IMG/VR virus record: IMGVR_UViG_3300026549_002477
From: an uncultured virus (IMG/VR IMGVR_UViG_3300026549_002477)
Lineage: Duplodnaviria > Heunggongvirae > Uroviricota > Caudoviricetes
Reading direction: 5' to 3' (one strand)
Length of the DNA stretch: 20,000 bases
Shown one piece after another: positions 12,534 to 15,631 of the stretch. Below the pieces are notes generated by a model. That model saw only the letters and a list, made by a program, of their open reading frames with translations, had not been told where the DNA came from and searched no databases. Within the stretch, counting starts at the first letter, position 1. Every line of letters starts with the position of its first letter. The translations under genes and the position numbers were made by a program.

Positions 12534-12561
12534 TTGCAATTTGAGTGATGAGTGATATAAT
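12534..12561 (+). promoter_or_regulatory. Strong SigA-type promoter for the tRNA array
   Basis: TTGCAA (12534-12539), 16-bp spacer, extended -10 TGaTATAAT. A-tract UP-like element upstream. Confidence 0.75.
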
Positions 12562-12702
12562 AAGTCTTGTAAGTGAGAGATACAAAGAAACTGATTAAAG
12601 AGATTGGTGGCAGGGTTTGAGTCCATAGAGGCTCATGAGATTAAAATGTCATTGCCAATAAGTGGAAAGTGTGACATATGGAAGTTTCCTACCAATCTTT
12701 TT

Positions 12703-12879: not shown

Positions 12880-13056
12880 TTTATTAAGCATAGGAGGAAA
12901 AAGGATGCATCGTTAAATTTAGGGTTCACCAGATAAAATCCTTCCACAAAAATCTGGTCTGTTTGGACATGCGGACTAAAGATGGTCGCGACATCAGAGG
13001 TTTAATTGATAAGATTGATCAACTTATCTAAAACTTGTTCAAGCAGTAAAAAATTT

Positions 13057-13211: not shown

Positions 13212-13500
13212 CTGAGGCTCTGATTCATGATAAGGAGCCGTAAGACAAAACCTGTCAACTAGCCTAGCGTATTGATACAGTGACTGTGCAATGTTAGCTG
13301 GGTTCCAAAATTATAAGAGTACAGGGTAAGGATTAAATAGTTGTGAACCGTAAGCAGACGTCGGAAAACGAAGCTGAGATATGTTGTCCTGACTAAAACC
13401 AAAATAGGTGAACAAGTCCTTGATTGGGGTACATATGTAAATGCGGATAGGCAAATCACTTACAAGTGCTTTATAGTTGTCAAAGGTCTATAAAGACATT
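13212..13500 (+). ncRNA. Candidate ~290-nt structured ncRNA, family unassigned
   Basis: No credible ORF. Multiple helices: ggctc/gagcc, cctgt/acagg, aaggatt/agtcctt, atatgt/acatat, ctttatag/ctataaag. Confidence 0.5.
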
Positions 13501-13504
13501 ATAT

Positions 13505-13800: not shown

Positions 13801-13914
13801 GGGGCGGTAGCATTGTCCGGGTGAAGAATGAGGTGGTGCCTTTCGTGACCGGAACAGTAGGCGATACATGCAACACCACATGTATATATGCAGGTGCAAA
13901 TCCTGCTCGCTCCA
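13801..13914 (+). ncRNA. tRNA-like RNA A (acceptor stem with G3:U70, T arm, long arm replacing the D arm)
   Basis: ggggcgg/tcgctcc + A. T arm gcagg-tgcaaat-cctgc. Internal ccgg/ccgg arm and atacatg/catgtat hairpin. Confidence 0.7.
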
Positions 13915-13919
13915 CTATT

Positions 13920-13980
13920 GCTGGAATGACGCAACTGATTTGTAATCAGTAGGTTGAGGGTTCGAATCCCTCTTTCAGCT
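13920..13980 (+). pseudogene. D-armless tRNA-Thr(TGT) copy
   Basis: Near copy of 14517-14589 lacking the 12 nt aattggcagcgc. Confidence 0.8.
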
Positions 13981-14039: not shown

Positions 14040-14109
14040 ACGCTCGTGTCGATGGTCGGCACATGGTCTCCAAAACCATGCTTTTCAGGTTCGATTCCTA
14101 ACGGACGTG
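14040..14109 (+). tRNA. Atypical tRNA-Trp(CCA)-like, copy 1
   Basis: catggt-ctCCAaa-accatg and GGTTCGATTCC. Compressed acceptor/D junction and a T-stem mismatch. Confidence 0.6.
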
Positions 14110-14160: not shown

Positions 14161-14258
14161 GCATTCGTAGCTCAATGGCCGATAGCCTGTGGGAAAGCGC
14201 ATCACGTAGAAGCTGAGTAGCAGCTGATGAAATGCAGGTTCGAATCCTGTCGGATGCA
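14161..14258 (+). ncRNA. tRNA-like RNA B (enlarged D loop and anticodon loop)
   Basis: gcattcg/cggatgc + A, TAGCTCAATGG start, T arm gcagg-ttcgaat-cctgt. catca/tgatg closes a 20-nt loop. Confidence 0.7.
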
Positions 14259-14441: not shown

Positions 14442-14516
14442 TGTGCGGCACACTCACTCCCCCTTCCCGTAATTATTGTACAGCGTGTGTGCAGAGAAAG
14501 AGCGGACACGCACTTC

Positions 14517-14589
14517 GCTGGAATGGCGCAATTGGCAGCGCAACTGATTTGTAATCAGTAGGTTGTGGGTTCAAGTCCCACTTTCAGCT
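14517..14589 (+). tRNA. tRNA-Thr(TGT)
   Basis: actga-ttTGTaa-tcagt, canonical cloverleaf. Confidence 0.93.
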
Positions 14590-14593
14590 TTAT

Positions 14594-14678
14594 GGACGGG
14601 TATCAAAGTGGTCAAATGAGGCAGACTGTAAATCTGTCGCCCTCCGGGCTTCGCTTGGTTCGAATCCAGCTCCGTCTA
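14594..14678 (+). tRNA. tRNA-Tyr(GTA)
   Basis: gcaga-ctGTAaa-tctgt, long variable arm. One bulged base in the T stem. Confidence 0.85.
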
Positions 14679-14682
14679 TTAT

Positions 14683-14752
14683 GCGTTCGTGTTGATGGTC
14701 AGCACATGGCCTCCAAAATCATGTTTCTCAGGTTTGATTCCTAACGGACGTG
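14683..14752 (+). tRNA. Atypical tRNA-Trp(CCA)-like, copy 2 (more degenerate)
   Basis: Paralogue of 14040-14109 with ctCCAaa loop. T loop is tttgatt. Confidence 0.5.
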
Positions 14753-14760
14753 TTGTATTT

Positions 14761-14832
14761 GGCTCGTTGGTCAAGCGGCTAAGACGTCACCCCTTCACGG
14801 TGGAATCACCGGTTCGACTCCGGTACGAGCTA
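14761..14832 (+). tRNA. tRNA-Glu(TTC) with C at position 33
   Basis: tcacc-ccTTCac-ggtgg. Acceptor ggctcgt/acgagct. Confidence 0.85.
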
Positions 14833-14835
14833 TTC

Positions 14836-14904
14836 GCGGGTATGGTGTAAGTCAGCACAGTCTGGTGTGCAACCGACAAGTAAGGTGTAAGTCCTTTGCC
14901 CGCA
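14836..14904 (+). pseudogene. Degenerate tRNA, anticodon undetermined (loop tgtgcaa)
   Basis: Acceptor gcgggta/tgcccgc, short D arm gtg/cac, bulged anticodon stem, T loop tgtaagt. Confidence 0.55.
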
Positions 14905-15016
14905 GGGAGATTCCGAAGCCAGCTCCGTGTACTAGGTGGCACCTAGTCATCGTCTGGCAGATTATGGGGTACAGCAAAGCCGGCTGTGTCGCGTGGTGCA
15001 AATCCACGGTCTCCCG
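14905..15016 (+). ncRNA. tRNA-like RNA C (same architecture as A)
   Basis: gggagat/gtctccc + G. Long arm gccag..actaggt/acctagt..ctggc. Hairpin tacagc-aaagccg-gctgtg. T arm cgtgg-tgcaaat-ccacg. Confidence 0.7.
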
Positions 15017-15021
15017 CTTCT

Positions 15022-15095
15022 GGAATATTAGCTCAGTTGGTGAGAGCGGCGGCCTTATAAGCCGCGTGTCGGTGGTTCAAGTCCACCATATTCCA
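15022..15095 (+). tRNA. tRNA-Ile(TAT)
   Basis: gcggc-ctTATaa-gccgc. Acceptor ggaatat/atattcc. Confidence 0.92.
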
Positions 15096-15136
15096 TTTGC
15101 GATAGCAGTAATTTGCTTTTCGCAGAGATGCTTCGA

Positions 15137-15208
15137 TGGGGTTTCGCCAAGCGGTAAGGCATGGGATTTTGGTTCCCACATTCGTCGGTTCGAATCCGAC
15201 AACCCCTG
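15137..15208 (+). tRNA. tRNA-Gln(TTG)
   Basis: tggga-ttTTGgt-tccca, Gln-type D arm gccaagcggtaaggc, 1:72 mismatch. Confidence 0.9.
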
Positions 15209-15221
15209 CTCTCTCTTGTTA

Positions 15222-15414
15222 GATTCGGTAGTTAATAATGGTAGACACTGTACACAGACCGGATTGTTTGGAGGAATACCTAGGAGAAAACACCATAATA
15301 AAGACACTCCTACCAACAAACATTTATATTCGGATTTCTTGCCGAGCATCTCCTCGTGAGACTTTGCAAGAAGGCGCTGTGTTAGAAATGCGGGTTCGAA
15401 TCCCGCCCGAATCA
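15222..15414 (+). ncRNA. tRNA-like RNA D (~119-nt structured insertion in place of the anticodon loop)
   Basis: gattcgg/ccgaatc + A. D arm gtt-aataatggta-gac. T arm gcggg-ttcgaat-cccgc. acacag/ctgtgt closes the insert. Confidence 0.75.
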
Positions 15415-15591
15415 CAATGGCCATGACTTCAACTGCGCAGCACAAAGGCGGTGAATGATCGTGTTGTTGGAAGGCGGTTGCGACTGCAAAAAAGGCTAAC
15501 CGCAATTAGTGGTTGAAAAAGATATTTGAATATACTTGAAACGACATGCCTTTCTGGTTGAAAGATTGTCTTTCAGAAAATCGTCTCTGGT

Positions 15592-15631
15592 TGAAAACCG
15601 GATGGATGTCCTCATCTGTTCGGTTCTTTTT
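15592..15631 (+). terminator. Possible terminator at the end of the tRNA array
   Basis: Imperfect stem aaccg-gatg / catc..cggtt followed by a T-run. Confidence 0.4.

What the first reader, a model, noticed from the sequence alone, without database searches (positions are those of the whole stretch)
14905..15016. tRNA-like RNA C shares the architecture and unusual GGUGCAAAUCC T arm of RNA A despite different sequence
Seen: 112 nt versus 114 nt with the same order: acceptor, long interrupted arm (gccag 14918-14922 / ctggc 14954-14958 enclosing actaggt/acctagt), short hairpin with a 7-nt loop lacking U33, then a T arm with loop TGCAAAT instead of TTCRAAT. Inference: two divergent sequences with one fold point to a real structural class.
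Basis: seen in the sequence. Interest (0 to 1): 0.72.

Follow-up and report, generated by a model that had tools for sequence, protein, structure and literature searches.

The report
Phage tRNA mimic with recoded elbow
This 112-base stretch in a rumen phage's tRNA gene row encodes a tRNA-shaped RNA that keeps the amino-acid-accepting end but cannot read codons, built on the same plan as the unexplained "species 1" RNA of phage T4.

Summary
14905-15016 (RNA C) and 13801-13914 (RNA A) both fold as a 7-bp acceptor stem, a long interrupted arm, a second hairpin, and a 5-bp T arm with loop UGCAAAU. They share 41 pairs, 17 of them changed on both sides. Rfam and ARAGORN call neither one.

- **The odd T loop is not private to these RNAs.** G55 is one half of a "recoded elbow": in phage tRNAs it covaries with AG in place of GG in the D loop. 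Both A and C keep an unpaired AG just 3' of the long arm. I therefore read the long arm as a hairpin inserted into the D loop.
- **T4 species 1 RNA (rnaC) has the same plan.** It has a D-loop hairpin followed by GG and a normal T loop. Its function is unknown.
- **RNA C is a mosaic of neighbouring tRNA pieces.** Part of the apparent covariation therefore reflects different parent tRNAs.

I found no homologue outside this phage lineage, and a diverged relative seems to lack the segment.

Best reading (0.5): a non-decoding tRNA mimic cut out of the array transcript by tRNA-processing enzymes. Main rival (0.3): decayed recombination debris.

The parts
14905..15016 (+). RNA C, a 112-nt tRNA-shaped RNA (the finding)
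   Evidence: Fold. Covariance model R1 scores it 136.8 bits. No Rfam or ARAGORN call.
14905..14911 (+). Acceptor stem, 5' strand. It pairs with 15009-15015; G at 15016 is the discriminator. No CCA is encoded.
   Evidence: 7 of 7 pairs. The 5' end abuts the last base of element B (14904), and the 3' end lies 4-5 nt before tRNA-Ile at 15021.
14914..14917 (+). D-stem analogue, 5' strand. It pairs with 14962-14966, with one bulged A.
   Evidence: My reading, energy -44.4 kcal/mol. This is the weakest helix: 80% of its cells are paired.
14918..14958 (+). Long hairpin, read as an insertion in the D loop. Its apex is AGGU-GGC-ACCU.
   Evidence: Formed in every fold. The apex motif is shared with RNA A. 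The 5' strand (14914-14934) is 86% identical to the tRNA-Tyr 3' end.
14959..14961 (+). Unpaired AGA, proposed to stand for A18, G19 and A21. It would be the partner of G55 and C56 in the T loop.
   Evidence: Unpaired. The AG/G55 coupling is shown in phage tRNAs. The assignment to RNA C is inferred.
14968..14990 (+). Second hairpin, the anticodon-arm analogue: 5 to 8 bp with loop AAAGCCG, no U33 and no purine at position 37.
   Evidence: Its 3' strand and the following bases align to the tRNA-Ile anticodon stem and variable loop.
14992..15008 (+). T arm: 5 bp with loop UGCAAAU (14997-15003), which has G at position 55.
   Evidence: The same 17-mer is found in at least 120 IMG/VR loci.
13801..13914 (+). 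RNA A, the 114-nt paralogue. Acceptor stem with G3.U70 and A73; U8 and A9; 2-bp D stem; hairpin 13812-13858; unpaired AG 13859-13860; second hairpin 13864-13885; T arm 13890-13906.
   Evidence: The minimum-energy fold is the cloverleaf. Model R1 hits it at these exact ends. Pair counts.
14836..14904 (+). Element B, a 69-nt compact tRNA-shaped RNA. T loop UGUAAGU (G55), D loop AAGUCA (AG, no GG), and a 5-nt anticodon-position loop.
   Evidence: The minimum-energy fold is a cloverleaf, z = -1.91. No ARAGORN call and no Rfam match at E up to 10.
12534..12561 (+). Promoter-like site upstream of the array (TTGCAA, 16 nt, TG-TATAAT).
   Evidence: 10 of 12 positions match. This is a consensus match only.
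15596..15625 (+). Terminator-like hairpin with a T run, downstream of the array.
   Evidence: 13-bp stem. This is a consensus match only.

Best explanation
RNA C, with its paralogue RNA A and probably the neighbouring element B, is a non-decoding tRNA mimic encoded inside the tRNA array of a large rumen phage.

Proposed pathway:
- It is transcribed with the tRNAs as one precursor.
- RNase P cuts at G1. The 3' end is trimmed and CCA is added, because the 7-bp acceptor stem stacked on a 5-bp T arm is the part those enzymes recognise. This step is inferred.

Proposed structure:
- The body is still a tRNA fold.
- The elbow contact is recoded: an unpaired A-G after the long arm would meet G55-C56 of the T loop, in place of G18-G19 meeting U55-C56.
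- The long arm is a hairpin inserted into the D loop, 5' of that A-G.
- The anticodon arm survives only as a hairpin with no usable anticodon loop.

The molecule would therefore be handled like a tRNA by processing enzymes, and perhaps by other tRNA-binding proteins, but it could not decode. I think it most likely acts as a stable decoy or platform for a tRNA-binding factor, with the protruding hairpin as the added surface.

Shown here: the fold, the paralogy, the AG/G55 coupling in phage tRNAs, and the shared plan with T4 species 1 RNA. Inferred: processing, the tertiary contact, and the decoy role.
For: - **Fold and paralogy.** See the observation check.
- **Position in the array.** Ends sit flush with the neighbouring genes. 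A promoter-like site and a terminator-like site bracket the array.
- **Recoded elbow.** Among distinct ARAGORN-called tRNAs of the fetched IMG/VR loci plus the window: 103 of 103 with U55 have GG in the D region. 36 of 41 with G55 have AG and no GG. In the 5 examples printed for the remaining class, GG lies at the D-stem edge next to an AG. By my reading, only A, B and C in this array have G55, and each has an unpaired AG at the D-loop position: A at 13859-13860 in the minimum-energy fold, C at 14959-14960, and B in its D loop.
- **Same plan in T4 rnaC.** It has an acceptor-like stem, a 3-bp D stem, AA + long hairpin + GG, a second hairpin, and a normal T arm. In three genera of T4-type phages, 80 of 139 columns are invariant. 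The G next to the D stem's 3' strand (G75) is invariant. T4, the Enterobacter phage and the Kosakonia phage each show GG before the CCU strand; MAFFT puts the first G in different columns. The T stem and the acceptor stem covary, and the inserted hairpin is replaced outright in Kosakonia phage 305.
- **Strain variant (run X4).** A 633-nt contig over 14549-15181 carries 12 substitutions and 1 deletion. None of the 11 listed substitutions lies in RNA C, while 4 lie in B and 3 plus the deletion lie in the decayed Trp-like copy. In RNA A the only change is one G added in an internal loop.
- **Not coding.** The overlapping ORFs have no Pfam match, and the ORF over RNA C also runs across strong tRNA genes.
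Against: - No homologue carrying the A/C long-arm motif was found outside this phage: 1 dubious locus in IMG/VR; 30 metagenome loci, of which only L008 is real and it is the same phage; 11 genome loci, none convincing.
- RNA C is a mosaic of pieces that match neighbouring tRNAs. The array also holds plainly decayed copies, so recombination debris is a live alternative.
- A diverged relative seen in runs X2 and X1 (record 18; joint 14515 to 15137) skips the whole segment that holds B and C. One contig in RNA run X11 joins 14907 to 15028, with the letters between not known. The RNA is therefore not universal, even among close kin.
- The X4 conservation is weak statistically: P is about 0.1 for no change in 112 of 633 nt. 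One of the 12 substitutions is not listed.
- RNA-library contigs cover RNA C colinearly (X2, 14881-15021), but they cannot show transcription, ends or strand.
- For C the cloverleaf is not the minimum-energy fold.
- The AG-to-T-loop contact is inferred from tRNAs and has not been shown for these RNAs.
Confidence: 0.5

Rival explanations
1. RNA C and RNA A are non-functional debris: mosaic pseudo-tRNAs made by duplication, unequal recombination and inverted duplication within a fast-changing tRNA array. Their stems look intact only because the pieces were copied recently from working tRNAs.
For: - C 72-103 matches tRNA-Ile (z = 8.9), C 9-27 matches the tRNA-Tyr 3' end (z = 5.2; 86% over 21 nt), and A's T arm matches that of the 98-nt tRNA (z = 5.2).
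- The array holds decayed copies: a 61-nt Thr-like gene without a D arm, and a Trp-like copy scoring 17.9 bits.
- No homologues were found elsewhere.
- A relative lacks the segment.
Against: - Two copies keep the same four-helix plan, the same T loop and the same apex motif, although their stems come from different parents. Both changed a normal T loop to the same UGCAAAU and both keep AG, not GG.
- The acceptor helices are perfect and in register with the neighbouring genes.
- There are no substitutions in C in the X4 strain, while B and the Trp-like copy carry 4 changes each.
- T4 keeps an RNA of the same plan across genera.
Confidence: 0.3
2. It is a working but oddly shaped decoding tRNA. 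One version: the apex of the long arm is the anticodon loop (G-U-GGC-A-C in C, G-U-GGU-G-C in A) on an over-long anticodon arm, with the second hairpin as a long variable arm and no D arm.
For: - Both apex loops can be written with U33, three bases and a purine at position 37.
- Acceptor and T arms are intact.
- By recalled identity rules, RNA A has G3.U70 and A73, the alanine set (sequence).
Against: - The apex closes to a 3-nt loop in every fold.
- The arm is 13-18 bp, against 5 bp in a tRNA, so the anticodon-to-acceptor distance would be wrong (inference from tRNA geometry).
- Identity and 'anticodon' disagree: A has the Ala acceptor with GGU, and C has GGC without G3.U70.
- ARAGORN in its intron and mitochondrial modes, and Rfam tRNA, find nothing.
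- Long ORFs of the window are open under code 11.
Confidence: 0.05
3. It is an aminoacylatable tRNA-like RNA used outside normal decoding: a miniature tmRNA-like molecule, or a donor or decoy for a synthetase that ignores the anticodon.
For: - RNA A carries G3.U70 plus A73; the identity rule is recalled.
- Many IMG/VR tRNA-like elements with the same T loop keep a Leu-type D arm and often A73 while their anticodon arm is replaced.
Against: - RNA C has G3-C70 and G73, so the two paralogues do not share an identity set.
- No tag reading frame is present. ARAGORN's tmRNA mode and the Rfam tmRNA models find nothing.
Confidence: 0.07
4. It is a Y-RNA-like partner of a Ro60/Rsr protein, with the long arm as the protein-binding stem.
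For: - Its size is close to the 114 positions of the Rfam YrlA model.
- Some jumbo phages encode TROVE proteins that work with a tRNA-like partner (PMC7824862, passages read).
Against: - Rfam YrlA does not match A or C at E up to 10.
- By recall, YrlA has its ends on the Ro-binding stem and a capped acceptor-like arm, which is the opposite topology.
- No TROVE gene lies in the window.
Confidence: 0.03

Closest known systems
Bacteriophage T4 species 1 RNA (rnaC; NC_000866 70908-71046), a small stable RNA at the end of the T4 tRNA cluster
   Same: - It lies in a phage tRNA cluster.
- The predicted order of parts is the same: acceptor-like stem, short D stem, long hairpin inside the D loop followed by the two elbow purines, a second hairpin with no anticodon loop, and a T arm stacked on the acceptor stem.
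- Its function is unknown (PMC3014915 and PMC9697503, passages read).
   Different: - No specific sequence similarity: model R2 scores its 3' part 19.8 bits, as it does ordinary tRNAs.
- T4 uses the normal elbow (GG with UUCGAAU), whereas A and C use AG with UGCAAAU.
- The T4 acceptor stem has two U.U mismatches.
- T4 rnaC is 139 nt.
- In the T4 family the second hairpin's loop is invariant and the inserted hairpin varies. In A and C the apex of the inserted hairpin is the shared motif.
Recoded-elbow (A18/G55) tRNAs of phage and tRNA-array genes. They are known to me only from earlier notes of this scan (e1-2137561, e1-5822486) and. My searches found nothing in print.
   Same: - T loop with G55.
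- AG in place of GG at the D-loop position.
- Found in phage tRNA arrays.
- Some members lack a usable anticodon loop.
   Different: - Most members seen here are normal-sized, ARAGORN-called tRNAs with anticodons. For example, 42 of the 119 loci with A's T arm fall in called tRNAs, 25 of them tRNA-Met(CAT).
- A and C add a 41-47-nt hairpin in the D loop and have lost the anticodon loop.
tmRNA tRNA-like domain
   Same: An acceptor stem plus T arm is kept while the anticodon side is replaced. RNA A has G3.U70 and A73, as tmRNA does (recalled).
   Different: There is no mRNA-like domain and there are no pseudoknots. RNA C lacks G3.U70. ARAGORN and Rfam find nothing.
YrlA (bacterial and phage Y-RNA-like tRNA mimics, Rfam RF02553)
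   Same: A tRNA mimic of about 114 nt. Some are phage-encoded.
   Different: Rfam finds no match. The topology is the opposite (recalled). No Ro gene is seen in the window.

Membership tests
Canonical tRNA (Rfam RF00005; ARAGORN) | Recognised by the tRNA covariance model or by ARAGORN | tested here: not met
   No Rfam match at E up to 10 over 14905-15016 or, on the + strand, over 13801-13914. ARAGORN finds nothing in its default, intron, mitochondrial and relaxed modes.
Canonical tRNA (Rfam RF00005; ARAGORN) | 7-bp acceptor stem stacked on a 5-bp T stem with a 7-nt T loop | tested here: met
   12 of 12 pairs in both A and C.
Canonical tRNA (Rfam RF00005; ARAGORN) | 7-nt anticodon loop with U33 and a purine at 37 | tested here: not met
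   The loops are AAAGCCG (C) and CAACACCA (A).
Canonical tRNA (Rfam RF00005; ARAGORN) | G18-G19 in a short D loop meeting U55-C56 | tested here: not met
   The T loop has G55. The D-loop position holds a 41-47-nt hairpin followed by AG.
Recoded-elbow (A18/G55) phage tRNAs | G55 in the T loop together with AG, not GG, at the D-loop elbow position | tested here: met
   The coupling itself: 103 of 103 U55 tRNAs have GG, and 36 of 41 G55 tRNAs have AG without GG. A, B and C have G55 and an unpaired AG at that position. The contact itself is inferred.
T4 species 1 RNA (rnaC) family | Sequence homology to T4 rnaC | tested here: not met
   The phage-database search with the array found only tRNA matches. 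Model R2 scores rnaC no better than tRNAs.
T4 species 1 RNA (rnaC) family | Gene inside a phage tRNA cluster; tRNA-like acceptor and T arm; long hairpin in the D loop 5' of the two elbow purines; second hairpin without an anticodon loop | tested here: met
   for T4; for A and C. All structures are predicted.
T4 species 1 RNA (rnaC) family | Accumulates as a stable, processed small RNA during infection | not testable with these tools
   Only contigs of RNA libraries were available, and they cannot show ends or level.
tmRNA | tRNA-Ala-like acceptor stem (G3.U70), tag reading frame, pseudoknots | tested here: not met
   G3.U70 is present in A only. ARAGORN's tmRNA mode and the Rfam tmRNA models find nothing.
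YrlA / Y RNA-like | Match to RF02553; Ro-binding stem formed by the two ends; Ro/Rsr gene nearby | tested here: not met
   No match on A or C at E up to 10. No TROVE domain among the 13 window proteins scanned.

The most novel reading that the evidence does not exclude
RNA A, B and C, T4 species 1 RNA, and the many IMG/VR elements with a tRNA top half (acceptor stem, T arm, elbow purines) but a replaced D or anticodon region would all belong to one widespread, uncatalogued class. The class would be phage 'tRNA-chassis' RNAs: molecules that use the tRNA maturation, CCA-addition and possibly charging machinery, and that display a variable cargo helix. In this view the A18/G55 recoded elbow marks a phage-specific, orthogonal version of the tRNA corner. 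That would give the 50-year-old T4 species 1 puzzle a comparative framework.
Probability: 0.2. Interest if true: 0.75.

Novelty: new variant of a known kind. Interest (0 to 1): 0.5.

Why it matters
Phage tRNA arrays are usually read as codon-supply or anti-defence spare parts, and gene finders skip anything without an anticodon. This array holds at least three tRNA-shaped RNAs that cannot decode.

Their layout (a hairpin inserted in the D loop, with the elbow purines kept) is the same as that predicted for T4 species 1 RNA, whose role has never been found.

By the searches made here, that change is common in phage tRNA genes and is not described in print.

If these RNAs are functional, they point to a tRNA-binding host or phage factor as their target. 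They would also make the T4 question testable by comparison. If they are debris, they show how quickly tRNA arrays reshuffle pieces into tRNA-like folds.

Tried and rejected
- **Relatives through neighbouring proteins.** DUF975 and ClpB-like queries in IMG/VR found nothing. tblastn of two window proteins against phage records gave only matches under 30% identity.
- **Whole genome.** None is held for this window.
- **Intron-bearing tRNA.** ARAGORN with introns of 0-60 nt found nothing. Removing the long arm leaves no D arm and no 5' half of an anticodon arm. An RNA-library contig is colinear across RNA C.
- **K-turn in the long arm.** A's internal loop could form tandem G.A pairs, but C's cannot, so I dropped this as a shared feature (by eye).
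- **Apex GGY loop as the G18-G19 partner of the T loop.** I dropped this in favour of the AG bulge.
- **Anti-Shine-Dalgarno-like pairing of the apex.** Only 5 nt would pair, so I did not pursue it.
- **L001/L013 (IMG/VR and JGI copies of one contig).** It matches both motifs but has no tRNA-like closing stems that convince. ARAGORN finds nothing there, and it has no model R2 match at E up to 1.
- **Coverage gaps.** Run X11 has no cover over 14942-14995, and depth differs between runs. These are not interpretable.
- **Peptide reading of the Leu-like IMG/VR elements.** Rejected, because the shared motif falls in different frames and some copies carry stops (by eye).
- **Literature.**
  - No paper holds GGTGCAAATCC or GGUGCAAAUCC.
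  - Nothing among the listed titles describes A18/G55 in phage tRNAs.
  - No description of phage tRNA-like RNAs with D-loop hairpins was found.
  - PMC10690425 (passages read) reports candidate tRNA-like structures in IMG/VR without these details. I did not open its supplements, and they may list such motifs.

Full report
**Setting.** The window comes from a large phage. It encodes IF3, a ClpB-like ATPase, a DUF2201 metallopeptidase/VWA protein with an AAA partner, dUTPase and a type I methylase/specificity pair. Near-identical DNA occurs in 20 listed public runs from 13 studies, mostly labelled bovine gut. Between 12590 and 15412, on the + strand, lies a dense tRNA array. ARAGORN tRNAs there and Rfam. 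A promoter-like site (12534-12561) and a terminator-like hairpin (15596-15625) bracket it. The ORFs listed over the array have no Pfam match, and the one over RNA C also runs across strong tRNA genes.

**The observation.**
- RNA C (14905-15016) has a minimum free energy of -46.0 kcal/mol, z = -3.27, with 0 of 200 shuffles folding as well.
- The four-helix tRNA-like fold of C lies at -44.4 to -45.0 kcal/mol, slightly above the minimum.
- RNA A needs the ends 13801-13914. With them, the minimum-energy fold is exactly the same four-helix plan: -40.6 kcal/mol, z = -1.90. With ends one base off, z was only -0.92.
- The motif GGTGCAAATCC occurs exactly twice in the window, in these two T arms.
- A covariance model built from C alone finds A end to end at 19.9 bits. 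It scores tRNA-Gln and tRNA-Ile at 19.0 and 18.9 bits by skipping the long arm. What the model sees is therefore mostly tRNA-likeness.
- On the model-guided A+C alignment there are 41 pairs, and 95% of 80 cells are paired. 17 pairs changed on both sides. None of 500 shuffles reaches this, and slid partners give 1-3. That alignment leans towards the structure.
- Neither RNA matches any Rfam family at E up to 10. ARAGORN in its intron, mitochondrial and tmRNA modes finds nothing.

**What the odd T loop means.** I first treated UGCAAAU as a private mark, but it is not one.
- Of the 119 loci with A's T arm, 42 lie inside ARAGORN-called tRNAs, 25 of them tRNA-Met(CAT). Of the 120 loci with C's T arm, 4 do, and 92 more have a tRNA elsewhere in the 817-nt locus.
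I tested this on all distinct ARAGORN tRNAs of the fetched loci plus the window. 103 of 103 tRNAs with U55 have GG in the D region. 36 of 41 with G55 have AG and no GG. In the 5 printed examples of the rest, GG sits at the D-stem edge beside an AG.
- G55 is therefore one half of a coupled change at the tRNA elbow.
- By my reading, only A, C (UGCAAAU) and the 69-nt element B (UGUAAGU, 14836-14904) have G55 in this array. Every called tRNA has the usual UUCRANU loop.

**Re-reading the long arm.** With that rule in hand the anatomy becomes tRNA-like.
- *RNA A:* acceptor stem 1-7, U8, A9, a 2-bp D stem, a hairpin (13812-13858), then an unpaired A-G (13859-13860) just before the D stem's 3' strand. 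One base follows at the position of residue 26, then a 7-bp hairpin with an 8-nt loop, four variable bases, the T arm, the acceptor 3' strand and A73.
- *RNA C:* U8, C9, a 4-bp D stem with one bulge, the hairpin 14918-14958, unpaired A-G-A (14959-14961), the second hairpin, the T arm, and G73.
- The long interrupted arm is thus best read as a hairpin inserted in the D loop, 5' of the elbow purines. The second hairpin is what remains of the anticodon arm.
- Element B folds as a compact cloverleaf with AG in its D loop and a 5-nt loop at the anticodon position.
- The AG-to-G55C56 contact is an inference from tRNAs. Nothing here measures it.

**The closest known thing.** T4 carries two small stable RNAs at the end of its tRNA cluster. 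Their roles are still unknown (PMC3014915 and PMC9697503, passages read).
- The predicted fold of species 1 RNA (rnaC, 139 nt; z = -4.57) runs as follows: an acceptor-like stem, a 3-bp D stem, AA + a long hairpin + GG, a 10-bp second hairpin, and a normal T arm stacked on the acceptor stem.
- I aligned it with homologues from a Karamvirus and a Kanagawavirus. The core is invariant or covaries: one acceptor pair changes from A-U to G-C, and one T-stem pair from G-C to U-A.
- The G beside the D stem's 3' strand is invariant, and each sequence reads GG before that strand.
- The inserted hairpin is replaced by unrelated sequence in the Kosakonia phage.
- This is the same plan as A and C, with the ordinary GG/U55 elbow in place of AG/G55.
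- There is no sequence homology. The A+C model scores rnaC's 3' part at 19.8 bits, like any tRNA.

**Origin.** RNA C is a mosaic.
- Positions 72-103 align to the adjacent tRNA-Ile(UAU), covering the 3' half of its anticodon loop, its stem, variable loop and T arm (z = 8.9).
- Positions 9-27 align to the 3' end of tRNA-Tyr (z = 5.2; 86% over 21 nt).
- The acceptor stem resembles that of the second tRNA-Ile.
- RNA A's T arm matches that of the odd 98-nt tRNA at 14161-14258 (z = 5.2).

Much of the "compensatory" change in the acceptor and T stems (7 of the 17 pairs) therefore reflects different parents. This cuts both ways. It weakens the covariation argument. But it also means that two different tRNA backbones both carry the same UGCAAAU loop, the same AG, and a hairpin with the same apex motif. 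That is hard to get without selection or directed copying.

**Search for relatives.**
- The two-motif pattern found 1 dubious locus in IMG/VR.
- It found 30 metagenome loci. Only L008 is real, and it is the same phage at 984 of 985 bases.
- It found 11 genome loci. None convinced model R2; the best E-values were 0.04-0.1.
- The 3' 21-mer of C is absent from IMG/VR.
- Protein-anchored searches failed.

**Population data.**
- In run X4, a variant contig over 14549-15181 has 12 substitutions and a deletion. None of the 11 listed substitutions lies in RNA C, while 4 lie in B (one breaks its acceptor stem) and 3 plus the deletion lie in the Trp-like copy.
- RNA A differs only by one G added in an internal loop.
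- This conservation is suggestive only (P about 0.1).
- Against constancy, a more diverged relative (record 18 in X2, also seen in X1) joins 14515 to 15137, skipping Thr to Ile including B and C. One contig in X11 joins 14907 to 15028, with the letters between unknown.
- RNA-library contigs cover C colinearly. They show no splice, and they cannot show transcription or ends.

**Verdict.** RNA C is a real, tRNA-derived structured element with a paralogue. It is not a decoding tRNA, tmRNA or YrlA.
- Most likely (0.5) it is a processed, non-decoding tRNA mimic with a recoded elbow and a D-loop hairpin, a variant of the plan seen in T4 species 1 RNA. It may act as a decoy or platform for a tRNA-binding factor.
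- Decayed recombination debris remains a serious rival (0.3).

The identity rule for alanine (G3.U70, A73), the near-invariance of U55, and the YrlA topology are recalled. They were not tested here.

Noticed in passing
IMG/VR loci such as L034, L063, L069, L085, L166, L169, L180, L288, L340: A large family of tRNA-like elements that ARAGORN misses; Rfam missed all of about two dozen checked except L288. Each has a closing stem of 7 bp or more, then UG, a Leu-type D arm, an interior of very variable length in place of the anticodon arm, and a T arm with UGCAAAU (often 6 bp). They account for 116 of 360 motif occurrences and 39 distinct sequences of 76-253 nt. Many sit next to tRNA genes. L288 scores 31.5 bits as a tRNA with 97 nt replacing the anticodon arm. 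Some, such as L179, L180 and L220, carry an insert of about 100 nt inside the D loop.
   Followed up: partly
All fetched IMG/VR loci plus the window: G55 in the T loop goes with AG in place of GG in the D loop of phage tRNAs: 103 U55/GG, 0 U55/AG, 36 G55/AG, and 5 G55 with GG present. My two searches found nothing in print.
   Followed up: yes
window 14836-14904: Element B is a 69-nt cloverleaf with T loop UGUAAGU, D loop AAGUCA and a 5-nt loop at the anticodon position. All three arms contain a GGUGU..A..C-like motif. In strain X4 it carries 4 changes, one of which breaks acceptor pair 3.
   Followed up: partly
window 15328-15411: An 84-nt element with a normal T arm and a 6-bp acceptor-like stem. 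By eye it has a long hairpin followed by GG, but the minimum-energy fold differs. It may be another mimic with the ordinary elbow.
   Followed up: partly
window 14161-14258: A 98-nt gene scoring 41.8 bits as tRNA in Rfam but not called by ARAGORN. It has a large irregular region where the anticodon arm should be. Its T arm is the closest relative of RNA A's.
   Followed up: partly
window 13920-13980 and 14683-14752: A 61-nt tRNA-Thr-like gene lacking the D arm (47.9 bits), and a decayed tRNA-Trp copy (17.9 bits, T loop UUUGAUU). They are duplicates of the Thr gene at 14517 and the Trp gene at 14040.
   Followed up: partly
window 12590-12700, 12880-13055, 13213-13503: Non-coding gaps of 110-290 nt inside the array with no Rfam match. 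The first has complementary ends (gattggtgg / cctaccaatc).
   Followed up: no
L008 compared with window 14509-15493: A metagenome contig is 984 of 985 bases identical up to 15493 and then diverges. The region holding the type I methylase and specificity genes therefore differs between strains.
   Followed up: partly
L297 and L308 (IMG/VR): A 173-nt element that starts GGGGCUG and ends with the UGCAAAU T arm and a matching 3' strand. It has an AU-rich interior and may be a small tmRNA-like RNA. The closing stem could be chance.
   Followed up: no
L002 1909-2047, L403, L404: T4 rnaC homologues occur in 740 phage records. Across three genera the tRNA-like core and the second hairpin's loop are invariant, while the D-loop hairpin is swapped for unrelated sequence in Kosakonia phage 305. 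In several records the locus is annotated as a hypothetical protein or not annotated at all.
   Followed up: partly
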